A stretch of 32,000 nt of DNA. It comes from Zymomonas mobilis subsp. mobilis ATCC 10988 (GTDB taxonomy: Bacteria; Pseudomonadota; Alphaproteobacteria; Sphingomonadales; Sphingomonadaceae). Both the position numbers and the translations under genes were made by a program. The stretch spans positions 810,001-842,000 of the forward strand of contig NC_017262.1 of assembly GCF_000175255.2 (NCBI RefSeq), in the 5' to 3' direction. Within the stretch, counting starts at the first letter, position 1; every line of letters begins with the position of its first letter. A model generated the notes under the pieces. It did no database searches. It worked only from the letters and a program-made list of their open reading frames with translations, and had not been told where the DNA came from. Of the stretch, positions 4,517 to 15,666 are shown in pieces.

Positions 4517-4545
4517 AAAAAGGCCGGACGACACCTCGCCCAGCC
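4517..4545 (-). terminator. Intrinsic terminator after SLR gene 1
   Basis: In the minus-strand RNA, GGCUGGGCGA-GGUG-UCGUCCGGCC forms a 10-bp stem with two G-U pairs, followed by a U5 run. The same element recurs at 5327-5356 and 7111-7140. Confidence 0.75.
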
Positions 4546-4572
4546 CATAAAAACCTATCAAATAGAACAAAA

Positions 4573-5181
4573 CTAATAAAACAATTTTTGCAAATTCTCT
4601 TTAGCCTTGGCCTCACCCTTATCAGCCGCCTGCTGAAACCAGAATCGCGCAATCCCTTTATCTTGCACAACACCCTGACCAAAATAATAAGCGACACCTA
4701 AATTATATTGAGCGTCGGCATCGCCTTGATTGGCAGCCTTCTGATACCAAAACACCGCTTTCTCATAACCCTGCGGAACACCCGCACCTTGATAATACGC
4801 ACTACCTAAATCATATTGAGCAGCGGCATGTCCTTGATCAGCAGCCTTTTGATACCAAAACACCGCCTTCTCATAATCCTGCGCAACGCCCATACCATTA
4901 GCATAAGCGACACCTAAAGCATATTGAGCCTTGGCATTGCCTTGATCAGCTGCCTTCTGCCACCAAAACACCGCCTTCTCATAATCCCGCGCAACTCCCT
5001 TACCTTGAGAATAAGCAAAACCGAAAACGAATTGGGCAGCAGCATCACCCGCTTCAGCTTTTTTCTGAAGTTCAATGATAGCACTGCCACGGGACACTTG
5101 ACTTGTCCGCGCCACCCCCGCCGCTTGAACAGGCTCAACAAACAAAGGAAAAAATACTGCTACCAATAATATTCTTTTCAT
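4573..5181 (-). CDS. Exported Sel1-like-repeat protein (4 units)
   Basis: Signal peptide MKRILLVAVFFPLFVEPVQA|AG, then 36-aa units of the form xxAQyxLGxaYxxGxGVxQDYeKAvfWyqKAADQG. ATG at 5181; the ORF-track start at 5190 is a GTG. Confidence 0.9.
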   Translation of the reverse strand: MKRILLVAVFFPLFVEPVQAAGVARTSQVSRGSAIIELQKKAEAGDAAAQFVFGFAYSQGKGVARDYEKAVFWWQKAADQGNAKAQYALGVAYANGMGVAQDYEKAVFWYQKAADQGHAAAQYDLGSAYYQGAGVPQGYEKAVFWYQKAANQGDADAQYNLGVAYYFGQGVVQDKGIARFWFQQAADKGEAKAKENLQKLFY

Positions 5182-5418
5182 GAAAACCACATTATTTATA
5201 AAAGAACAGAATAATTATTCTACGGCATCAATAAACATAATTACATTAAAACTTGTACCGACACCCTAATAAATTCATCATTCCAATCTTTTTCTATAAA
5301 CCCGAACATTAACACAGTTACTTCACAAAAAAGGCTGGACGACACCTCGCCCAGCCCATAAAAACCTATCAAATAGAACACAAACTAATGAGACAATATT
5401 TGTAAAGCCTCCTTAGCC
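5024..5418. repeat. Segmental duplication, copy A (~395 bp, near-identical to 6808-7202)
   Basis: Base-by-base comparison at a constant offset of 1784 bp. The copy covers the 5' end of SLR gene 1, the whole 194-bp intergenic region (5191-5384, essentially identical to 6975-7168), the terminator and the last ~11 codons of SLR gene 2. I saw only scattered substitutions. Confidence 0.9.
5327..5356 (-). terminator. Intrinsic terminator after SLR gene 2
   Basis: Same stem-loop as 4517-4545 (plus strand GGCTGGACGA CACC TCGCCCAGCC), with a U6 run on the minus-strand RNA. Confidence 0.75.
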
Positions 5419-6965
5419 GCTTCATTACCTTTATCCGCCGCTTTCTGAATCCAGAATCGCGCAACCCCTTTATCTTGCACAACACCTTGACCTTTCAGAT
5501 AAGCTACACCCAAATTTAATTGAGCGTCGGCATAGCCTTTATTGGCAGCTTTCTGATACCAAAACACCGCCTTCCCATAATCCTGCGCAATTCCTGCTCC
5601 GTTGTAATAAGCTAAACCTAAAGCATATTGAGCAGCGGCAAGTCCTTGATCAGCTGCCTTCCGCCACCAAAATACTGCCTTCCCATAATCCTGCGCAGCA
5701 CCCTGACCTTGATAATAAGCATCACCCAAATTATATTGAGCATCAGCATAGCCTTGATCAGCAGCTTTCTGATACCAAAACACCGCCTTCTCATAATCCC
5801 GCGCAACTCCCTCTCCATTATAATAAGCATTACCTAAACCAAATTGAGACTTGGGATTGCCTTGTTCAGCAGCCTTCTGCCACCAAAACATCGTTTTCTC
5901 ATAGTCCTGCGCAACTCCTTGACCAAAATAATAAGCACTACCTAGATAAAATTGAGCATCAACATTGCCTTGATCAGCTGCCTTCTGATACCAAAATACT
6001 GCCTTCTCATAGTCCTGCGCAATTCCCTGACCCAAATCATAAGCCAAACCTAAACTCAATTGAGCATCGGCAAGTTCTTGATCAGCTGCCTTCTGATACC
6101 AAAATACCGCCTTCCCATAGTCCTGCGCAATTCCCGCTCCATCATGATAAGCATTACCTAAAAAATATTGAGCAGCGGCAAGTCCTTGATCAGCTGCCTT
6201 CTGATACCAAAACACCGATTTCCCATAATCCTGCGCAACACCGGCTCCATTATAATAAGCATTACCTAAAAAATATTGAGCAGCGGCAAGTCCTTGATCA
6301 GCTGCCTTCTGCGACCAGAACATCGCCTTCTCATAATCTCGCGCAACTCCATAACCAAAATAATAAGCACCACCTAGATAAAATTGAGCATCAACATTGC
6401 CTTGATCAGCGGCCTTCTGCCACCAAAAGGCTGCCTTCTCATAATCCTGCGCAACGCCCATACCATCACGATAAGCATTACCTAAATTAGATTGAGCAGC
6501 AGCATCACCTTGTTCAGCAGCCTTCTGATACCAAAATATCGCTTTTACTTTATCTTTTGGGACGCCTGCCCCTTGATCATACAAAAGGCCTAAATAATAT
6601 TGAGCCGAAGCATCGTTTTGATCGGCAGCCTTGTCAAACCAAAATACGGCCTTCTCATAATCTTGTGAGATACCTTGACCCGAAATATAAGCGACACCTA
6701 ACTTACGTTGAGCCGAGACATTATCTTGATCAGCTGCCTTCTGCCACCAAAACACCGCCTTCTCATAATCCTGCGCAATTCCCGCTCCTTTTTGATAAGC
6801 TAAACCTAAAACGAATTGAGCAGCGGCATCACCTGCTTCAGCCTTTTTTTGAAGTTCAATGATAGCACTGCCACGGGACACTTGACTTGTCTGCGCCACC
6901 CCCGCCGCTTGAACAGGCTTAACAAACAAAGGAAAAAAGGCCGCTACCAATAATATTCTTTTCAT
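5385..6965 (-). CDS. Exported Sel1-like-repeat protein (13 units; largest paralog)
   Basis: The signal peptide is almost identical to gene 1 (MKRILLVAAFFPLFVKPVQA|AG). I counted 13 consecutive xxAQxxLG...KAADQG units. ATG at 6965. Confidence 0.9.
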   Translation of the reverse strand: MKRILLVAAFFPLFVKPVQAAGVAQTSQVSRGSAIIELQKKAEAGDAAAQFVLGLAYQKGAGIAQDYEKAVFWWQKAADQDNVSAQRKLGVAYISGQGISQDYEKAVFWFDKAADQNDASAQYYLGLLYDQGAGVPKDKVKAIFWYQKAAEQGDAAAQSNLGNAYRDGMGVAQDYEKAAFWWQKAADQGNVDAQFYLGGAYYFGYGVARDYEKAMFWSQKAADQGLAAAQYFLGNAYYNGAGVAQDYGKSVFWYQKAADQGLAAAQYFLGNAYHDGAGIAQDYGKAVFWYQKAADQELADAQLSLGLAYDLGQGIAQDYEKAVFWYQKAADQGNVDAQFYLGSAYYFGQGVAQDYEKTMFWWQKAAEQGNPKSQFGLGNAYYNGEGVARDYEKAVFWYQKAADQGYADAQYNLGDAYYQGQGAAQDYGKAVFWWRKAADQGLAAAQYALGLAYYNGAGIAQDYGKAVFWYQKAANKGYADAQLNLGVAYLKGQGVVQDKGVARFWIQKAADKGNEAAKEALQILSH

Positions 6966-7202
6966 GAAAACCACATTATTTATAAAAGAACAGAATAATT
7001 ATTCTACGGCATCAATAAACATAATTACATTAAAACTTGTACCGACACCCTAATAAATTCATCATTCCAATCTTTTTCTATAAACCCGAACATTAACACA
7101 GTTACTTCACAAAAAAGGCCGGACGATATCTCGCCCAGCCCATAAAAACCTATCAAATAGAACACAAACTAATGAGACAATATTTGTAAAGCCTCCTTAG
7201 CC
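6808..7202. repeat. Segmental duplication, copy B (partner of 5024-5418)
   Basis: See copy A. This copy covers the 5' end of SLR gene 2, the intergenic region, the terminator and the 3' end of SLR gene 3. Confidence 0.9.
7111..7140 (-). terminator. Intrinsic terminator after SLR gene 3
   Basis: Plus strand reads GGCCGGACGA TATC TCGCCCAGCC, preceded by A6 (U6 on the minus-strand RNA). Confidence 0.75.
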
Positions 7203-7762
7203 TTGGCATTACCCTTATCAGCCGCCTGCTGAATCCAGAATCGTGCAATCCCTTTATCTTGCACAACACCCTGACCCAAATAATAAGCCTTACCTAAATT
7301 TAATTGAGCATCGGCATAGCCTTGATCTGCAGCCTTCTGCCACCAAAAGGCTGCATGCTCATCACTTTTTGGCAGACCTTGGCCTTTGACGTATAAAAGC
7401 CCGAGATTATATTGCGCTTGTATAAAATTCTGATCAGCCGCTTTCCGATACCAAAAGGCGGCTTTTTCATAATCTACCCCGACACCTCGCCCATGAAGAT
7501 AGGCATCCCCCAAATTATACTGGGATTCCTTCATGCCTTTATCGGCCGCCTTCTGATACCAGTAAACAGCCTTTTCATCATCCTGCGGCCGCCCTCTGCC
7601 ATGCGCATAAGCCTCGCCCAGAACCTCTTCTGCCAAACGGTTACCGGCCTTCGCCCGTACTTCCAAAGAAGAGATCATCTCACGGTCATAGCGTTCCTTA
7701 TCCGCTTGCATCGTTAAAGGCGAAACAGACAGGGACAAAACCACTAAAGGAACAAAAAACAT
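7169..7762 (-). CDS. Sel1-like-repeat protein (4 units)
   Basis: SLR units as above, and a C-terminus nearly identical to gene 2 (...KEALQILSH). The N-terminus MFFVPLVVLSLSVSPLTMQA is hydrophobic but lacks a basic n-region, so export is less certain. ATG at 7762; the codon at 7765 is a TTG. Confidence 0.8.
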   Translation of the reverse strand: MFFVPLVVLSLSVSPLTMQADKERYDREMISSLEVRAKAGNRLAEEVLGEAYAHGRGRPQDDEKAVYWYQKAADKGMKESQYNLGDAYLHGRGVGVDYEKAAFWYRKAADQNFIQAQYNLGLLYVKGQGLPKSDEHAAFWWQKAADQGYADAQLNLGKAYYLGQGVVQDKGIARFWIQQAADKGNAKAKEALQILSH

Positions 7763-7869
7763 CAAACCCCACGATAAAAGAAGGCCAAAACCGCCCTCTA
7801 TTCCCTCATTTTAAAACGCGTTATTCTCAAAATCACATGAATATTAAGACAAACAGAATCCTTGTCAGA

Positions 7870-8478
7870 TTATCGCACCAACATCGCCAGTAACTTTTGC
7901 GCTTCAGCATCCCCTTGGTCAGCGGCTTTCCCAATCCAGAAAAGCGCTTTTTCTTTATTTCTTGGCATGCCCTTTCCCAAAGCATAAGCCGATCCCAAAG
8001 CCCTTTGAGCCTCAGCATTGCCTTGATCGGCGGCTTTTTGATACCAATAAACAGCCTGCTCATCGCTCTGCGGCACCAGCTCCCCTTTAGCATATAAAAG
8101 AGCTAAATTCCGTTGCGCGTCTATATAGCCTTGATCCGCCGCCTTTCGGTACCAATAGACAGCTTTTTCCCCATCTTTAGGCCTTCCTGCCCCCTTATAA
8201 TAAAGCCCGCCTAAATTATATTGAGCCTCAGCGACAGCTTGATCGGCCGCTTTTTGATACCAGAAAAAAGCCTTTTGGTAATCCTGCGGCGTTATTTTTC
8301 CAAAATCAAAGGCCTCTCCCAAGGCAGCTTCTGCCTCGGTATCGCCCTGATCGGCAGCCTGTTTTAATTCATACAGTTTTTTTTGGGAAAAAATGGACGG
8401 CGTTTTACGCACCTGCGAATAAACAATCTGGCCGCCGACAGACAAAAGCAGCCCTAACAGAATAATTCTTTTCTTCAT
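7870..8478 (-). CDS. Exported Sel1-like-repeat protein (4 units)
   Basis: Signal peptide MKKRIILLGLLLSVGGQIVYS, followed by SLR units (FWYQKAADQ, YWYRKAADQG, YWYQKAADQG, FWIGKAADQG). Confidence 0.88.
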   Translation of the reverse strand: MKKRIILLGLLLSVGGQIVYSQVRKTPSIFSQKKLYELKQAADQGDTEAEAALGEAFDFGKITPQDYQKAFFWYQKAADQAVAEAQYNLGGLYYKGAGRPKDGEKAVYWYRKAADQGYIDAQRNLALLYAKGELVPQSDEQAVYWYQKAADQGNAEAQRALGSAYALGKGMPRNKEKALFWIGKAADQGDAEAQKLLAMLVR

Positions 8479-8599
8479 AATCGCCGTATAATTTATAAAA
8501 AGATATGTATAAAATAAGCTACGGCAATATTCCTTTATTTTTCAATTTGTTAAACGCCCTATCCGCTTCAATGTCTCTCCAGAAACAAGCATAACCAAC

Positions 8600-8632
8600 A
8601 AAAACGGGCATAAGCTCATCGCCCATACCCGT
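8600..8632 (-). terminator. Probable intrinsic terminator after SLR gene 5
   Basis: In the minus-strand RNA, ACGGGUAU pairs with AUGCCCGU (8 bp, one G-U). The loop is 13 nt, which is long, and a U run follows. Confidence 0.5.
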
Positions 8633-8660
8633 TATTCAATCGTCAAACAGACTCTCAAAT

Positions 8661-9485
8661 CTATTTATTCATCATTTCCAATACATCTTGGGCATGGCTG
8701 TCGCCTTTATCTGCCGCTTTTTCGAGCCAGAAAGTCGCTTTATCCTTATCTTTCTGCACCCCTTGGCCTTTCAAATAGGCGATACCCAAATTGAATTCAG
8801 CCTCGACAAGTCCCTGATTAGCGGCTTGCTGATACCAGAAGGTCGCCTGTTTCTCGTCTTTTTTGACGACTTTGCCCTCGTGATAAATCAGCCCCAAATT
8901 ATATTGGGCATCGGCATAGCCTTTATCGGCGGCCTTATGAAACCAGAATAAAGCGCGGTCATGATCCTCTGGTATGCCCGCTCCATTCCGATACATAACA
9001 CCAAGATAAAATTGGGCAGGAACAAAGCCTTGATTGGCAGAACGCTGAAACCAGAAAGAAGCCTGCCCATAATTCTGCGTCACACCGCGCCCAGTATAAT
9101 AGGCGATAGCCAAACTATATTGAGCCTCAGCCAAACCCTGATTGGCCGCCTTTTGATACCATGAAACGGCCTGCTCATCACTTTGGGTCAAACCAATGCC
9201 CTGCAGACAAGCATTACCCAAATAATATTGGGCAAGCGGATAACCTTGGTTAGCCGCCTTCTGATACCAGGAAATAGCCTGCTTATAGTCCTGCGCCATG
9301 CCTTGGCCGTTATAATAAGCCGTGCCCAAATCCGTTTGCGCCTTCGGGTTACCGGCTCTGGCCTTCTGTTCCAAAGACAGAGCCGTTTTTCCGGCTACCA
9401 CTTTCGTCGATTTAGCCGTCTGGGCTTGCACCGGATTAGCAACAAAAGGCAAAAAAACGGCCGTAAAAAACAGGAATTTTCTCAT
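8661..9485 (-). CDS. Exported Sel1-like-repeat protein (6 units)
   Basis: Signal peptide MRKFLFFTAVFLPFVANPVQA|QT, then 6 SLR units. I prefer the ATG at 9485 over the longer ORF-track start at 9506. Confidence 0.88.
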   Translation of the reverse strand: MRKFLFFTAVFLPFVANPVQAQTAKSTKVVAGKTALSLEQKARAGNPKAQTDLGTAYYNGQGMAQDYKQAISWYQKAANQGYPLAQYYLGNACLQGIGLTQSDEQAVSWYQKAANQGLAEAQYSLAIAYYTGRGVTQNYGQASFWFQRSANQGFVPAQFYLGVMYRNGAGIPEDHDRALFWFHKAADKGYADAQYNLGLIYHEGKVVKKDEKQATFWYQQAANQGLVEAEFNLGIAYLKGQGVQKDKDKATFWLEKAADKGDSHAQDVLEMMNK

Positions 9486-9622
9486 AACAACCGCCCATCC
9501 TCTCAAAAAAGCTGAACTTCTTTTCCTTGAACCTATTTAAGAGGTTTTAGCCAATATTAAACAGCTTTGTCGAAAGAAACAAAAGCCGTTTCAATCCTTA
9601 ATACCCGCACAGAGGAAAGCCC

Positions 9623-10990
9623 TTAAAGGGGATAGTGATCCAAATTATGCAAGGTTGACTGCGCCTCGACATCCCCTTGAGCGGCCGCCTTTTCCAGCCA
9701 GAAAATGGCTTCATTCCTATCTTTCGGCACGCCTTCGCCTCTCATATAGAAAGCTCCAAGATTATATTGGGCGCTCATTTCCCCATGACTGGCGGCTCTC
9801 TGGAACCAATAGATCGACTGGGCAAGATCTTTCGGCTCACCCACACCATTATAATAAGCGATAGCGAGATTATATTCAGCCTTACTATCGCCTTGCTCTG
9901 CGGCTTTGCGATAGAGAAAAATGCCACGCGCATAGTCTTGCGCCACACCCCTAGCTTGATAATAGGCAAAGCCCATATTCAATTGCGCTTTTACATGCCC
10001 TTGATCGGCCGCTTTCTTATACCAAAAGGCTGCCTTTGCATCATCTTGCGAGATACCTTCGCCTTTTCGATAGGCTAAACCTAAATTATATTCTGCCTCG
10101 GCATCGCCTTTATCGGCTGCCTTTTGATACCAATAAACCGCTTTTTCATCATCTTTCGGCACGCCATAACCATGACGATAGGCATTACCCAAATTATCCT
10201 CGGCTGCGCTGACATCTTTATCAGCAGCTTTACGAAAACAATCCAAACCGCGCTCATAATTCTGCGGCACGCCGCGTCCCGTCATATAAAAAACGCCTAA
10301 AGCGGTTAGCGCTTCACCATCACCTTGATCCGCCGCTTTTTGATAATATGAAACCGCTTTTTGATCGTCCTGTTTTACACCGGCACCCCGACGATAGGCA
10401 TTACCCAGTGCCATTTGCGCTTCAGCATAATAGACCTGACGATCCGCTTTCATGAAAAGCGCCACCGCTTTTTTATCATCACGAGGCAGCATAATCCCCG
10501 CCTGATAAGCCAAGCCTAAATGCGTCTCTGCCTTGAAAAAATTTTGATCCGCCGCTTTTTTCAGCCAGAAAAGCGCCCGCTCATAATTCTGCTCAACGCC
10601 CTTCCCCTGTTCATAAGCAAGGGCAAGATTATATTCTGCCTCATCAATGCCCTGTTCGGCCGCTTTCTCATACCAAAAGGCCGCCTGCTTATCGCTCTGA
10701 GCAACCCCCTCTCCGGTGGCATAAAGACCGGCCAGATTATATTGCGCCGCTGAAAAACCTTTACTTGCAGCTTTTTCAAACCAGAAAGCTGCCATCGCGG
10801 CGTCTTTAGGCACGGCAGCTCCGACATAATAAGCCAAACCTAAATTGGATTGTGCCGCGATATCACCCGCTTCGGCTGCCTGTTTAAGCGGGATCTGATC
10901 CGATTCAACAACATGCGGTTTTTCTGGGGCAGCCATAGAAGGCGTGACAGAAGACGATAACAAAACAGATAAAAGCAGAATTTTTTTCAC
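9623..10990 (-). CDS. Exported Sel1-like-repeat protein (11 units)
   Basis: Signal peptide MKKILLLSVLLSSSVTPSMA|AP, then 11 SLR units. The start codon at 10990-10988 is a GTG, and no in-frame upstream ATG exists. Confidence 0.88.
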   Translation of the reverse strand: MKKILLLSVLLSSSVTPSMAAPEKPHVVESDQIPLKQAAEAGDIAAQSNLGLAYYVGAAVPKDAAMAAFWFEKAASKGFSAAQYNLAGLYATGEGVAQSDKQAAFWYEKAAEQGIDEAEYNLALAYEQGKGVEQNYERALFWLKKAADQNFFKAETHLGLAYQAGIMLPRDDKKAVALFMKADRQVYYAEAQMALGNAYRRGAGVKQDDQKAVSYYQKAADQGDGEALTALGVFYMTGRGVPQNYERGLDCFRKAADKDVSAAEDNLGNAYRHGYGVPKDDEKAVYWYQKAADKGDAEAEYNLGLAYRKGEGISQDDAKAAFWYKKAADQGHVKAQLNMGFAYYQARGVAQDYARGIFLYRKAAEQGDSKAEYNLAIAYYNGVGEPKDLAQSIYWFQRAASHGEMSAQYNLGAFYMRGEGVPKDRNEAIFWLEKAAAQGDVEAQSTLHNLDHYPL

Positions 10991-11168
10991 AATAACCGTC
11001 TATTCAAAAGGAATAACAACCACAGATAGCGCTCCCCCTGAAAGCCATCCGTGATAAAAAAGATCATTCGGAAATGATGCCTGCCCCCAATCTCCGATAT
11101 CAATAAAAGCAGGGCAGCCCCATAAGAAGCCACCCCAGCCTTTTCTCAAAAAAGCCTTTCAGAAAAAT

Positions 11169-11891
11169 TTATTTCTTCAAAGCAGGTAGAATTTTTTGAG
11201 CCGTCACATCCCCCTGATCGGCGGCTTTCTGAATCCAAATCAGCGCATTATCTCTACTTTTCGTCACGCCCCGACCTGTAATATAGGCAACACCTAACGC
11301 CGTTTGCGCCTTGGCATCGCCCTGTTCAGCTGCTTTTTGATACCAAAAGACGGCCTGACCGTAATCCTGAACGACCCCTTCGCCGTGATAATAGGCGGCA
11401 CCTAAATTAAATTCAGCAGGGGCATAACCCTGATGTGCCGCTCTCTGATACCAAGAAGCGGCCTCTTCATCACTATGAGGCACACCCTGACCATTTGAAT
11501 AGGCCATGCCTAAATTATATTGAGCCGAAGCATTACCCTGATTGGCCGCTTTTTGGAAAAAAGAAACCGCCTGTTGATCATCATGGGGCACACCCAATCC
11601 AGAGGAATAAGCATATCCCAAGGCCGCCTGAGCCGGTGCATAGCCTTGGCTGGCAGATTTCTGATACCAAGAGACAGCTTGTTCGTCACTTTTGGAAACA
11701 TCTTGGCCTTTGGAATAGGCATTACCCAAAGCATATTGCGCTTTGGCATCTCCTCGTTCAGCCGCTTTTTGAAGCGGCGATTTCAAACCATCACGGGTCA
11801 TTTTTACAACGCGACCAACACCGATACGGGCAAAAGCGGGTTGGGCAAAAACAGGAAGAAGGGCGGCAGTCAAAACAAGTATTCTCTTCAT
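11169..11891 (-). CDS. Exported Sel1-like-repeat protein (5 units)
   Basis: Signal peptide MKRILVLTAALLPVFAQPAFA|RI, then 5 SLR units. I prefer the ATG at 11891 over the ORF-track start at 11936. Confidence 0.88.
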   Translation of the reverse strand: MKRILVLTAALLPVFAQPAFARIGVGRVVKMTRDGLKSPLQKAAERGDAKAQYALGNAYSKGQDVSKSDEQAVSWYQKSASQGYAPAQAALGYAYSSGLGVPHDDQQAVSFFQKAANQGNASAQYNLGMAYSNGQGVPHSDEEAASWYQRAAHQGYAPAEFNLGAAYYHGEGVVQDYGQAVFWYQKAAEQGDAKAQTALGVAYITGRGVTKSRDNALIWIQKAADQGDVTAQKILPALKK

Positions 11892-12121
11892 AATCACCGT
11901 ATAATTAGTAACAAAGACTGCATAGCCCTTATACAATCATGGCTATAATATCATTCAAAATCCGCTTATAATTTTCTCAAATTGAAAAATATTGTAATAA
12001 CTCTCTGTTTTATCTAAGCACAAATAACGAAATCCTCATGCAAACAACGCATAATTCTTCCAATACAGGGATATAAAAATCCTCTATTGATAAGATAAAA
12101 ATTCCCTTATTATGGATTGGG

Positions 12122-12940
12122 CTATTGTAGTCTTTGCAGGATTTTAAAGGCGTTATAATCCCCTTGGGCAGCCGCCCTTTGTAACCAGAAAACCCCGTCA
12201 CGCTTGGATCGCGCAACGCCCTCTCCTTTCAAATAGGCCATACCCAATAAATATTGCGCCATCACATCACCCTGATGGGCAGCCTTCTGATACCACATGA
12301 AAGCTCGCCCCTTATCCTGCGGAACGCCACTACCGTAATAATAGGCCACGCCAACCATCGTTTGCGCTAAAAGGGATCCCTGATGGGCGGCTTTATCGAA
12401 CCAAAAAAAAGACATCTTATCATCTTTGGGAAGACCGCGCCCTTGATGATATACAAAACCTAAACGGGCTTCGGCCTCGATATTATTTTGCGCCGCCGCC
12501 TTTTGATACCAAAAAGCCGCTTTTGCTTCATCGCGCCCCACGCCCGTTCCATTGTGATAGGCATCCGCTAACGCTACTTCCCCCTCGGCATAGCCTTGAT
12601 TGGCAGATTTTTGGAACCAGAACACCGCCTGTTTACTATTTTTAGGGACATCGGAACGCCCCGTCAGATAGGCTTTCCCTAAAAACATTTGGGCTTCAGC
12701 ATCGCCTTTCTTGGCGGCCTCTTGAGGATGCAAAAAAATTTGATAACGAAGCGGAGGATCAGGCGGTATACTATCTTTTTCGACGACAAGACGACGCCCA
12801 GAGCTCTTTTCTTGAACAGGCTTTTTTATCAAGGCCGCATATTTCGACTGAAAGGATTCTAATTCTTTTCTAATCTGCATTTGCGTGCGGCTCGCGACAA
12901 AAGAAAAAACCACAACCCATAAAAGCAGAATTTTTTTCAT
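12122..12940 (-). CDS. Exported Sel1-like-repeat protein (5 units, with a ~70-aa non-repeat N-terminal region)
   Basis: MKKILLLWVVVFSFVASRT hydrophobic leader, a unique linker (QSKYAALIKKPVQEKSSGRRLVVEKDSIPPDPP), then 5 SLR units. I prefer the ATG at 12940 over 13015. Confidence 0.85.
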   Translation of the reverse strand: MKKILLLWVVVFSFVASRTQMQIRKELESFQSKYAALIKKPVQEKSSGRRLVVEKDSIPPDPPLRYQIFLHPQEAAKKGDAEAQMFLGKAYLTGRSDVPKNSKQAVFWFQKSANQGYAEGEVALADAYHNGTGVGRDEAKAAFWYQKAAAQNNIEAEARLGFVYHQGRGLPKDDKMSFFWFDKAAHQGSLLAQTMVGVAYYYGSGVPQDKGRAFMWYQKAAHQGDVMAQYLLGMAYLKGEGVARSKRDGVFWLQRAAAQGDYNAFKILQRLQ

Positions 12941-13447
12941 GATCACCGTCTGTTTTCTATCATCGAATATGGATGCCTCGAAATGACCGCATCGCTCATG
13001 GGTAAAGACAGACAACGATCAAAGCCGTTTCACGCCAAGGCCTTCATTCTTGTAAAAACAGCCCCTCCAGCGAAACACGTCCTTCCGCATCGCTTTAGAC
13101 ACAAGCCCCAAAGCGCTTCAATTCAAAAATGACTTGTGGTGCATAATCCACAATAAAGCCAATTAGTTACATTCATTCAGACAGTGATGACTAAAACGTC
13201 TTACATTCTTTCAAAAAATCAGTATCAGAGGGAATAAAGGCTGTAACAATACAGTCACTTTTCTACTCTAGACACATAAAATCTTTCTTGGGGCGGGGGG
13301 CTTAAACAAGCTGGATGGATAGTTTGTGTTCAAGGCATATCATCGGATATCGCCCTCTCTATTGGCTTGTCTGGCCTCATTTCTCTCGAAATGAAAATTT
13401 CAAAAACCGATATTTTTGTAGGTTCACGAGGAAATAGGGTAGAATCC

Positions 13448-14549: not shown

Positions 14550-15344
14550 ATGATAAAAGTCCCGCGGTTCATCTGTATGATCGCGCTTACATCCGGCGTT
14601 CTGGCAAGCGGCCTTTCTCAAAGCGTTTCAGCTCATACAGAAAAAAGTGAACCCTCCTCGACTTATCATTTCCACAGCGATCCCCTTCTTTACCTTGCGC
14701 CCCCACCCACTTCCGGCAGTCCATTACAGGCGCATGATGATCAAACCTTTAACAGCACCAGACAATTAAAAGGTAGCACGCGCTGGGCATTGGCAACTCA
14801 AGATGCCGATCTTCATCTCGCTTCAGTGCTCAAAGACTATGCCTGCGCCGCAGGAATGAATCTCGATATTGCGCAATTACCGCATCTTGCCAATTTGATT
14901 AAACGCGCACTTCGCACCGAATATGACGATATTGGCAGAGCCAAAAATAACTGGAATCGCAAACGGCCTTTTGTGGATACCGATCAACCTATCTGCACGG
15001 AAAAAGATCGCGAAGGTCTGGGAAAACAAGGCTCCTATCCTTCAGGTCATACGACTATCGGTTGGAGCGTTGCGCTCATTCTGGCTGAATTGATCCCCGA
15101 TCATGCGGCAAATATTTTGCAGCGTGGCCAAATTTTTGGAACCAGCCGGATTGTCTGCGGCGCGCATTGGGTCAGCGATGTGCAGGCAGGCTATATCATG
15201 GCATCGGGCGAAATTGCAGCTTTACATGGGGATGCCGATTTCCGCCGAGACATGGAATTAGCTCGGAAAGAATTAGAAAAGGCACGCGCATCAGCGCACA
15301 CGCCAGACGATCTTCTATGCAAGATTGAACAAAGCGCTCGCTAA
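14550..15344 (+). CDS. phoC: Class-A non-specific acid phosphatase (PAP2 family)
   Basis: Signal peptide, plus the three PAP2 signature blocks KNNWNRKRPF (KxxxxxxRP), YPSGHTT (PSGH) and SRIVCGAHWVSDV (SRxxxxxHxxxD). At 264 aa, the sequence matches my recollection of Z. mobilis PhoC. Confidence 0.92.
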   Translation: MIKVPRFICMIALTSGVLASGLSQSVSAHTEKSEPSSTYHFHSDPLLYLAPPPTSGSPLQAHDDQTFNSTRQLKGSTRWALATQDADLHLASVLKDYACAAGMNLDIAQLPHLANLIKRALRTEYDDIGRAKNNWNRKRPFVDTDQPICTEKDREGLGKQGSYPSGHTTIGWSVALILAELIPDHAANILQRGQIFGTSRIVCGAHWVSDVQAGYIMASGEIAALHGDADFRRDMELARKELEKARASAHTPDDLLCKIEQSAR

Positions 15345-15666
15345 ATTCAATCAGGTATTATTTCAACAAGGGGAAAGATTGCTTGCTGTAATTTTTGGAT
15401 ATCAAACAGGAGAAAAAATGAAAGAGCGCAGCCTCTTTCAAAGGCAATTGGATTTAGTCCGGTGGCATTCTCACGCCACAAACCAAATCATAAATAACCG
15501 CCTCTTTTCCGCCAGATAACTGCAAAATTATAGAATACCGACAGGCTGGAATATCGTCATTTTTCCTAGACGTAATATTTCTAAAACAAGCAATCATCGA
15601 ACTTAATCATTGTAAACCGCTATTTGTATCATAGCAGGATCGGGAAATATTTTAAGGGGGGACGGG

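What the first reader, a model, noticed from the sequence alone, without database searches (positions are those of the whole stretch)
4573..12940. Battery of eight tandem, co-oriented genes for exported Sel1-like-repeat proteins (~52 repeat units in 8.4 kb)
Eight consecutive minus-strand ORFs have 4, 13, 4, 4, 6, 11, 5 and 5 units, by my count of xxAQxxLG...KAAxQG units. Each consists of a Sec-type leader and almost nothing but 36-aa SLR units. Each is separated by a 100-190-nt AT-rich spacer that could hold its own promoter. No enzyme, transporter or regulator is interspersed. Known SLR proteins act as adaptor or scaffold modules, for example eukaryotic Sel1/Hrd3, H. pylori Hcp proteins and Legionella LpnE/EnhC. 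Unlike the H. pylori Hcps, these have no paired cysteines. An expansion this large is unexplained in what looks like a small free-living fermentative genome. It suggests a periplasmic or surface scaffold family under diversifying or copy-number selection.
Basis: partly seen in the sequence, partly recalled or inferred. Interest (0 to 1): 0.62.

Follow-up and report, generated by a model that had tools for sequence, protein, structure and literature searches.

The report
Strain-variable Sel1-repeat gene array in Zymomonas
Eight neighbouring genes of Zymomonas mobilis each encode an exported protein made almost entirely of Sel1-type helical repeats; the array is real, found only in this genus and changes gene and repeat number between strains, but it is an already annotated example of a known kind of gene family and its function is still unknown.

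Summary
Window 4573-12940 carries eight co-oriented minus-strand genes of 198-526 aa. Pfam Sel1 (PF08238) finds 4, 13, 4, 4, 6, 10, 5 and 5 units (51); my own unit HMM finds 52. Each gene has a hydrophobic N-terminal leader. None has a lipobox or paired cysteines, and nothing else lies between them.

The organism is Zymomonas mobilis. The locus is the annotated ZMO0132-ZMO0137 plus ZMO2040/2041 region of strain ZM4, already reported as a 2.4-kb assembly-collapse site.

The expansion is genus-specific: 36-93 Sel1 units per ~2-Mb Zymomonas genome, against 0-17 in 37 other Sphingomonadales.

Across ten assemblies, the five genes next to the metallophosphoesterase gene are constant and under purifying selection (piN/piS 0.04-0.23). 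The end next to the fructosamine-kinase gene is reshuffled by recombination: 6-11 genes, 34-59 units, chimeric leader and C-cap combinations. I found no sign of gene-wide diversifying selection.

The closest precedent is the strain-variable tandem slrV/msf locus of Haemophilus influenzae. The most likely role is a set of independently transcribed periplasmic or secreted binding solenoids with an unknown ligand. Verdict: a new member of a known kind, of modest interest. Earlier notes of this scan describe variable Sel1 arrays on other DNA too.

The parts
4573..5181 (-). g1: exported SLR protein, 202 aa, 4 units. Leader MKRILLVAVFFPLFVEPVQA (type N0), C-cap type C0.
5385..6965 (-). g2: exported SLR protein, 526 aa, 13 units. 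Same leader and C-cap types as g1. Its units are the youngest in the array: each unit's closest relative lies in g1/g2, at 67-86% aa identity.
   Evidence: AlphaFold pLDDT 89.4 with 28 helices
7169..7765 (-). g3: SLR protein, 198 aa, 4 units. Leader MMFFVPLVVLSLSVSPLTMQA (type N6, no K/R). In this strain it is a chimera carrying the C0 cap of g1/g2; most other strains have N6-5 units-C4.
7870..8478 (-). g4: exported SLR protein, 202 aa, 4 units (3 units in ZM4).
8661..9485 (-). g5: exported SLR protein, 274 aa, 6 units. Constant in all strains compared. By inference ZMO2040 or ZMO2041 of ZM4.
9623..10990 (-). g6: exported SLR protein, 455 aa, 10-11 units. Constant in all strains compared. By inference ZMO2040 or ZMO2041 of ZM4.
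11169..11888 (-). g7: exported SLR protein, 239-240 aa, 5 units. By inference ZMO0133 of ZM4 (723 bp).
12122..12940 (-). g8: SLR protein, 272 aa, 5 units after a non-repeat N-terminal region of about 80 aa. Leader MKKILLLWVVVFSFVAS; cleavage uncertain. By inference ZMO0132.
4521..4546 (-). Terminator-like hairpin after g1 (11-bp stem plus T run). It lies in a 59-nt 3' flank that g1, g2 and g3 share at 93-95% identity.
   Evidence: (family D7)
5332..5357 (-). Terminator-like hairpin after g2.
7116..7141 (-). Terminator-like hairpin after g3.
8603..8633 (-). Terminator-like hairpin after g5.
11110..11137 (-). Terminator-like hairpin after g7.
5010..5434 (-). First copy of a 425-nt direct duplication, 95% identical to 6794-7218. 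It comprises the end of the upstream gene, its terminator, the whole spacer, the leader and the first helices of g1. It is a ready substrate for deletion or amplification of g2.
6794..7218 (-). Second copy of the 425-nt duplication (upstream and 5' end of g2).

Best explanation
This is a lineage-specific tandem family of Sec-exported Sel1-like-repeat solenoid proteins of Zymomonas mobilis (ZM4 names ZMO0132-ZMO0137 plus ZMO2040/2041).

Each gene is a cassette: its own AT-rich upstream region, a leader with an N-terminal capping helix, n x 108-nt repeat units, a C-terminal cap and, for most genes, its own terminator.

The five genes at the metallophosphoesterase end are old, diverged from one another, constant between strains and kept by purifying selection. 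The genes at the fructosamine-kinase end are young. They are continually remodelled by homologous recombination between units and between shared 5' and 3' modules. The outcomes are in-frame gain or loss of units, gene gain or loss, and leader/cap chimeras.

Inferred, not shown: the products are non-enzymatic periplasmic or released binding scaffolds. Their concave surfaces, where the variable unit positions 1, 4, 5, 8, 11, 12, 14, 17 and 35 would lie, would hold protein or envelope ligands. The genes would be regulated individually and mostly silent in rich medium, with one paralogue induced in stationary phase.
For: Shown:
- Sel1 HMM matches and unit counts.
- Confident all-alpha solenoid model, with bacterial SLR structures as best hits: 6ok3, 4bwr/EsiB, LceB, LpnE, HcpC.
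- Leaders on all eight genes, and on all 13 SLR genes of the genome.
- Terminator hairpins after five of the genes.
- Genus-specific expansion: 93/79/36/86 units in Zymomonas against 0-17 in 37 relatives.
- Same insertion site in a sister species, and absence at that site in a more distant Zymomonas.
- Seven distinct architectures in ten assemblies, all differing at one end, with chimeric N/C modules.
- A 425-nt 95% duplication bracketing g2.
- g1/g2 units are each other's nearest relatives, whereas g4-g8 units are only 50-69% alike.
- piN/piS 0.04-0.23 for g4-g8.

Against: No ligand, localisation or phenotype is known, so the functional part is inference from family behaviour.

Signal-peptide cleavage was judged by eye only. 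g3 lacks a positively charged n-region, and g8 may keep its leader as an anchor.

Some inter-strain differences may be assembly artefacts. CP035711 (L006) repeats the known 2.4-kb collapse of the old ZM4 sequence, and L007 contains an N gap.
Confidence: 0.6

Rival explanations
1. Orphan immunity array. The exported SLR proteins neutralise periplasm-acting toxins of competitors, in the way the tandem SLR immunity proteins PA5086-PA5088 neutralise the type VI phospholipase PldB. The shuffled end of the array tracks changing toxins.
For: The proteins are exported, tandem, variable in number and lack a partner gene. Tandem SLR immunity genes are documented (PMC13736854, listed). Two ~270-aa 'uncharacterized protein' chains (5jkp, 5jjo) give weak matches, E 5e-9 and 5e-8; from memory only, not checked here, I take these to be the PA5086/PA5087 group.
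Against: The genome has no type VI sheath gene (PF05943), and no toxin gene lies in or beside the array. Similarity to 5jkp and 5jjo is far weaker than to generic SLR proteins (1e-111 for 6ok3). Five of the eight genes are invariant between strains and under purifying selection. PADLOC gives only spurious low hits.
Confidence: 0.1
2. Factors for interaction with a eukaryotic host or vector ('eukaryote-like' SLR proteins), as in Legionella LpnE/EnhC/LceB, H. pylori Hcp, H. influenzae Msf and the secreted SLR proteins of Oxalobacter formigenes.
For: The closest sequence and structure matches are exactly these proteins. SLR expansions and strain-variable tandem SLR loci are typical of host-associated bacteria (PMC4792463; PMC1941758, listed). 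The genes are mostly silent in laboratory rich medium.
Against: Zymomonas is known from plant saps and fermenting beverages, and no host association is established (general knowledge). SLR proteins match one another strongly through the repeat consensus alone. The best identity outside the genus is below 50% and is scattered over many phyla, so the matches say nothing about shared function.
Confidence: 0.12
3. Envelope-stress or signalling adaptors in the periplasm. Examples are ExoR-like inhibitors of a sensor kinase, or NlpI/EnhC-like adaptors that control cell-wall hydrolases or proteases. They would be used under heat, ethanol or acid stress.
For: ExoR, an alphaproteobacterial periplasmic SLR regulator, gives weak matches. 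Two SLR and three TPR genes were reported up-regulated at 40 C in thermotolerant Z. mobilis strains (PMC12984119). ZMO2040 rises in stationary phase.
Against: ExoR scores are 23-57 bits against a cut-off of 450. The heat-induced genes could not be mapped to this array. Eight or more paralogues with variable unit number are not expected of a dedicated regulator. No sensor kinase or hydrolase gene is linked.
Confidence: 0.13
4. Largely dispensable repeat DNA. The array persists and varies only because 108-nt repeats recombine readily, and the products have no important function.
For: Most members are expressed at very low levels in ZM4. There is presence/absence variation at the left end, and the array is absent from this site in one Zymomonas species.
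Against: Every gene is an intact frame in every assembly. All unit changes are in frame. piN/piS is 0.04-0.23 within the species, and orthologues are retained in a sister species despite saturated dS.
Confidence: 0.05

Closest known systems
Variable SLR (slrV / msfA1-4) locus of Haemophilus influenzae (PMC4792463)
   Same: Tandem, co-oriented genes at a fixed site between core genes. Each encodes a signal peptide plus Sel1-like repeats. Strains differ in gene number (0-5) and in repeats per gene. Subfamilies are recognisable by signal peptide and C-terminus, while individual motifs are shuffled. The Zymomonas array shows the same pattern.
   Different: The Zymomonas array is larger (6-11 genes, 34-59 units). 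It lacks the C-terminal cysteine pair of SlrV. It has a stable five-gene half. It occurs in a bacterium not known to live in a host, and no phenotype is known for it.
Oxalobacter formigenes Sel1 repeat proteins (PDB 6ok3, 6onw, 6ork, 6ur7) and E. coli EsiB/c5321 (4bwr)
   Same: These are the best sequence matches (E 1e-111 and 3e-82) and the best fold matches. They are cysteine-poor consensus SLR solenoids of similar length.
   Different: Only about 38% identity. The similarity is that of the repeat consensus, not orthology. Their reported roles in host interaction have no known counterpart in Zymomonas.
Helicobacter pylori Hcp (cysteine-rich SLR) family
   Same: A secreted multi-member SLR paralogue family with lineage-specific evolution (PMC1941758 and PMC3608669, listed). 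HcpC (1ouv) is a fold match.
   Different: Hcp repeats are stapled by paired cysteines, whereas the proteins here have 0-1 cysteine each. Hcp genes are dispersed, not in one array.
PA5086-PA5088, tandem SLR immunity proteins of the P. aeruginosa PldB toxin (PMC13736854)
   Same: Several exported SLR genes lie side by side.
   Different: Those lie next to their toxin and a type VI system. Here there is neither. No specific similarity to them was shown: the only candidate chains (5jkp, 5jjo, identified from memory) match weakly.

Membership tests
Sel1-like repeat proteins (Pfam PF08238 / SMART SM00671) | Repeated 36-aa units matching the Sel1 HMM above the gathering score | tested here: met
   All eight proteins score 142-439 bits against a cut-off of 30.7, with 4-13 stretches each.
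Sel1-like repeat proteins (Pfam PF08238 / SMART SM00671) | Antiparallel helix-pair solenoid fold | tested here: met
   AlphaFold model of g2: pLDDT 89.4, 28 regular helices. Foldseek top hits are SLR crystal structures. Only g2 was modelled.
Helicobacter cysteine-rich proteins (Hcp) | A pair of cysteines in each repeat forming a disulfide | tested here: not met
   0-1 cysteine per protein.
ExoR (NCBIfam NF045484) | Score above the equivalog cut-off (450 bits) | tested here: not met
   23-57 bits.
MerG NF033786, MotX NF047621, AlgK NF038194 | Score above the equivalog cut-off (350, 330 and 700 bits) | tested here: not met
   Best scores are 228, 125 and 101 bits, all of them multi-stretch repeat matches. 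No mer, flagellar or alginate genes are adjacent.
Type VI lipase immunity proteins of the SLR type (Tli5b: PA5086-5088) | Encoded beside a cognate PLD/Tle effector and linked to a type VI system | tested here: not met
   No effector-like ORF lies in or next to the array. No TssC/VipB in the genome.
Sec-exported proteins | Cleavable N-terminal signal peptide and extracytoplasmic location | tested here: inconclusive
   The n/h/c regions are seen by inspection on all eight, weakest for g3 and g8. No SignalP tool was available and there are no experimental data.
Strain-variable tandem SLR loci (H. influenzae slrV type) | Fixed chromosomal site; gene number and repeats per gene vary between strains; subfamilies defined by leader and C-terminus | tested here: met
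   compared with PMC4792463. This is a resemblance of organisation, not shown to be common descent.

The most novel reading that the evidence does not exclude
The fructosamine-kinase end of the array is a recombinational cassette system. By swapping leaders, caps and unit numbers it produces new exported binding surfaces. These would serve as decoys or shields against periplasm-acting toxins or phage proteins met in mixed fermentations. If so, this would be a population-level, immunity-like repertoire in a bacterium with no type VI system of its own.
Probability: 0.08. Interest if true: 0.6.

Novelty: new member of a known kind. Interest (0 to 1): 0.3.

Why it matters
Z. mobilis is an industrial ethanol producer with a small, heavily studied genome, yet about 0.4% of it is an exported repeat-protein battery with no known role.

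There is a practical consequence. The locus misassembles, as shown by the ZM4 2.4-kb collapse, and it very probably generates false variant calls in resequencing studies.

Biologically it adds a case, in a bacterium not known as a pathogen, to the known pattern of strain-variable tandem SLR loci. That makes Z. mobilis a tractable laboratory organism for asking what such arrays bind. It does not open a new category.

Tried and rejected
- Exact-sequence look-up of the eight proteins returned nothing. Strain comparison was done through the flanking kinase gene instead.
- Gene-wide dN/dS between species is unreliable because dS is saturated at 1.2-2.7. The within-species piN/piS was used instead.
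- A blastn self-comparison at 85% identity or more missed the g1/g2 5' duplication. Direct alignment and offset scanning found it.
- Defence-system models (PADLOC) gave only weak matches to a Sel1-like piece of the PtuA model. Rfam gave nothing in the spacers.
- I looked for a recurring neighbour around the five dispersed SLR genes. The neighbouring ORFs showed no recurring partner by their N-terminal sequences; I did not run family searches on them.
- The heat-induced SLR genes ZZ6_RS05750 and ZZ6_RS06260 (PMC12984119) could not be mapped to this array.
- Homologues outside Zymomonas are at most 49% identical and phylogenetically scattered, so no donor or orthologue could be named. Of the 57 non-Zymomonas loci, only two held four or more tandem SLR genes within +/-6 kb.


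Full report
**What is there**

Window 4573-12940 holds eight co-oriented minus-strand ORFs. With the most plausible starts they are:

| Gene | Coordinates | Length (aa) |
|---|---|---|
| g1 | 4573-5181 | 202 |
| g2 | 5385-6965 | 526 |
| g3 | 7169-7765 | 198 |
| g4 | 7870-8478 | 202 |
| g5 | 8661-9485 | 274 |
| g6 | 9623-10990 | 455 |
| g7 | 11169-11888 | 239 |
| g8 | 12122-12940 | 272 |

- Pfam Sel1 (PF08238) matches all of them far above its cut-off, with 4, 13, 4, 4, 6, 10, 5 and 5 stretches.
- An HMM built from the window's own units finds 4, 13, 4, 4, 6, 11, 5 and 5, which is 52.
- The DNA shows the 108-nt period throughout.
- The unit consensus is xAQYxLGxAYxxGxGVxQDYEKAVFWYQKAADQGxA. The variable positions are 1, 4, 5, 8, 11, 12, 14, 17 and 35.
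- No curated NCBIfam equivalog (MerG, MotX, AlgK, ExoR) is reached.

**Leaders, spacers and fold**

- Every protein starts with a hydrophobic leader followed by small residues at -3/-1. Seven of the eight also have K/R before the hydrophobic stretch.
- g3 lacks that positive charge, and g8 may be an uncleaved anchor.
- There is no lipobox, no twin-arginine motif and 0-1 cysteine per protein. SignalP was not available.
- The spacers are 104-233 nt with GC 0.30-0.44, against 0.47 in coding sequence.
- Strong terminator-like hairpins follow g1, g2, g3, g5 and g7. The genes therefore look like mostly separate transcription units rather than one operon.
- No Rfam family lies in the spacers.
- AlphaFold2 models g2 as 28 regular helices (pLDDT 89.4) with residues 1-26 unstructured.
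- By sequence and by fold, the nearest solved structures are Oxalobacter formigenes Sel1 proteins (6ok3), E. coli EsiB (4bwr), Legionella LceB and LpnE, and H. pylori HcpC.

**Which organism and which locus**

The flanking fructosamine kinase and metallophosphoesterase are Zymomonas mobilis proteins. The genome is 2.14 Mb in 7 contigs.

ZMO0130 is the acid phosphatase and ZMO0131 the metallophosphoesterase of strain ZM4. By gene order the array is therefore ZMO0132 onwards.

PMC5930841 reports the following:
- The first ZM4 genome lacked 2400 bp inside ZMO0133.
- Restoring them added two further Sel1 genes, ZMO2040 and ZMO2041.
- ZMO2041 and ZMO0133-0136 are very low in rich medium.

The 723 figure given there fits g7 in base pairs (240 codons). 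So ZMO0133 is g7, and ZMO2040/2041 are g6 and g5; this is my inference.

**How unusual is it**

- The genome has 93 Sel1 matches in 13 genes, all with hydrophobic N-termini. Twelve of the genes lie within 96 kb.
- Four Zymomonas genomes of about 2 Mb have 93, 79, 36 and 86 matches. Thirty-seven other Sphingomonadales genomes of 2.2-6.9 Mb have 0-17.
- A sister species, whose kinase is 92% identical, has an array of 9 genes at the same site. My unit HMM counts 52 units there.
- A more distant Zymomonas (kinase 79% identical) has unrelated genes at that site and no metallophosphoesterase.
- Outside the genus the best relatives are below 50% identical and scattered over many phyla.
- Of 57 non-Zymomonas loci, only two held four or more SLR genes within +/-6 kb.

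The expansion therefore arose within Zymomonas.

**Variation between strains**

I fetched the locus from eight other Z. mobilis assemblies through the invariant kinase gene and from one MAG. I then parsed each gene into leader type, unit number and C-cap type.

The five genes g4-g8 are the same everywhere. The two exceptions are ZM4, where g4 has lost one unit in frame, and CP035711.

The end next to the kinase differs in almost every strain:

| Assembly | Left-end architecture |
|---|---|
| Window and L001 | N0-4u, N0-13u, N6-4u-C0 |
| L002 | N1-11u, N6-5u |
| NCIMB 11163 | N1-5u, N6-5u |
| ZM4 | N0-10u, N1-5u, N6-5u |
| CP003715 | N7-5u, N1-3u, N6-5u |
| CP021053 | N1-2u, N6-5u |

- Totals run from 6 to 11 genes and from 34 to 59 units.
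- Leaders and caps recombine. The window's g3 carries the cap and 3' flank of g1/g2.
- A 425-nt duplication, 95% identical, brackets g2.
- Units of g1/g2 are each other's nearest relatives at 67-86% identity, while units of g4-g8 are only 50-69% alike.
- Two caveats apply. CP035711 shows exactly the 2400-bp g7/g5 fusion of the old, mis-assembled ZM4 sequence, and its length is within 2 bp of that sequence, so I treat it as an artefact. L007 contains an N gap.

**Selection**

| Comparison | SLR genes | Flanking genes |
|---|---|---|
| Within Z. mobilis, piN/piS | 0.04-0.23 (g4-g8) | 0.00-0.02 (three flanking genes) |
| Against the sister species, aa identity | g5 70%, g6 65%, g7 83%, g8 63% | 92% and 89% |
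| Against the sister species, dN/dS (dS saturated) | 0.06-0.15 | 0.04 and 0.06 |

The proteins evolve faster than their neighbours but remain under purifying selection. Gene-wide diversifying selection is not supported. Selection confined to surface positions was not testable with these data.

**What it most likely does**

Shown here or supported by prediction: exported-looking, non-enzymatic solenoids. Supported: independent transcription units. Shown: a stable half and a recombining half.

Inferred from how SLR proteins behave elsewhere: they bind protein or envelope ligands in the periplasm or outside the cell. I give this generic reading about 0.6.

Four rival readings remain:
- An orphan immunity array of the PA5086-5088 type. 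No type VI sheath gene, no toxin gene, no specific similarity shown, and PADLOC empty all count against it.
- Host- or vector-interaction factors. The best structural relatives are of this kind, but the similarity is consensus-level only.
- ExoR- or NlpI-like stress adaptors. ExoR scores are 23-57 bits against 450. The reported heat induction of some Z. mobilis SLR/TPR genes could not be mapped to this locus.
- Near-neutral repeat DNA. Intact frames and low piN/piS count against it.

No recurring partner gene was seen beside the five dispersed SLR genes.

**Comparison with what is known**

The closest precedent is the slrV/msf locus of H. influenzae (PMC4792463). There:
- Tandem signal-peptide SLR genes sit at a fixed site.
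- Each strain has 0-5 genes, and repeats per gene vary.
- Subfamilies are defined by leader and C-terminus, and motifs are shuffled.

The Zymomonas array is a bigger, cysteine-free version in a bacterium not known as a pathogen, with an added stable half. Earlier notes of this scan also record variable Sel1 arrays on other DNA.

The finding is therefore real and well delimited. It is a new member of a known kind, already annotated, with function unknown. Interest 0.3.

Noticed in passing
window 11169-11888 (g7 = ZMO0133); PMC6321654 Table 2: PMC6321654 lists 14 'SNVs' in ZMO0133 at ZM4 positions 122147-122235 in one mutant. That is exactly the joint (122195-122196) where the old ZM4 reference lacks 2400 bp of this repeat array. 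They are very probably read-mapping artefacts of the collapsed reference, not mutations.
   Followed up: partly
L006 (CP035711) 14749-15624: This assembly has a g7-leader/g5-tail fusion gene and lacks g6. The 2400-bp loss is identical to the error in the old ZM4 sequence, and the record length (2,056,361) is within 2 bp of that old sequence. It is likely a reference-guided artefact.
   Followed up: partly
PMC5930841, text on ZMO0133: The paper's text gives ZMO0133 as '2493 to 2169 bp (831-723 aa)', while its Table 1 says 831 bp to 723 bp. The gene in the corrected genome is 240 codons (723 bp), so the table is right and the text is not.
   Followed up: yes
G000:C1 882082-883209, 893758-895191, 904834-906732, 909791-910738, 1405319-1406113: Five further SLR genes (6-14 units each, all with hydrophobic N-termini) lie outside the array. 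Four of them are within 60-90 kb of it, among housekeeping genes.
   Followed up: partly
L005 11078-11797, L007 11292-12011, L015 (sister species) 9721-10431: Other strains and the sister species carry, at the kinase end, an SLR gene whose N-terminus looks like a membrane anchor followed by lysines (MAFIIPFIIMILLPLFFGKKKQQ) rather than a cleavable leader. This type is absent from the window.
   Followed up: no
window 11000-11149 (-): A 49-aa gene is called here in several public records. It lies across the g7 terminator hairpin in the g6-g7 spacer and has no repeat or family match, so it is probably a spurious call.
   Followed up: partly
L014 (G002:C1:1233000-1252000): The most distant Zymomonas genome keeps synteny up to the fructosamine-kinase gene. 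It then has unrelated genes, including a HerA-like ATPase also present further along the window, and lacks the metallophosphoesterase. The array site coincides with a rearrangement breakpoint.
   Followed up: partly
window 9438-9499, 10943-11004, 12893-12954: The translation-start regions of g5, g6 and g8 share a 62-nt motif (...GACGGT.AT..TGAAAAAAATTCTGCTTTT...) at 63-79% identity. This suggests a common ancestral 5' module for these old paralogues (family D8).
   Followed up: no
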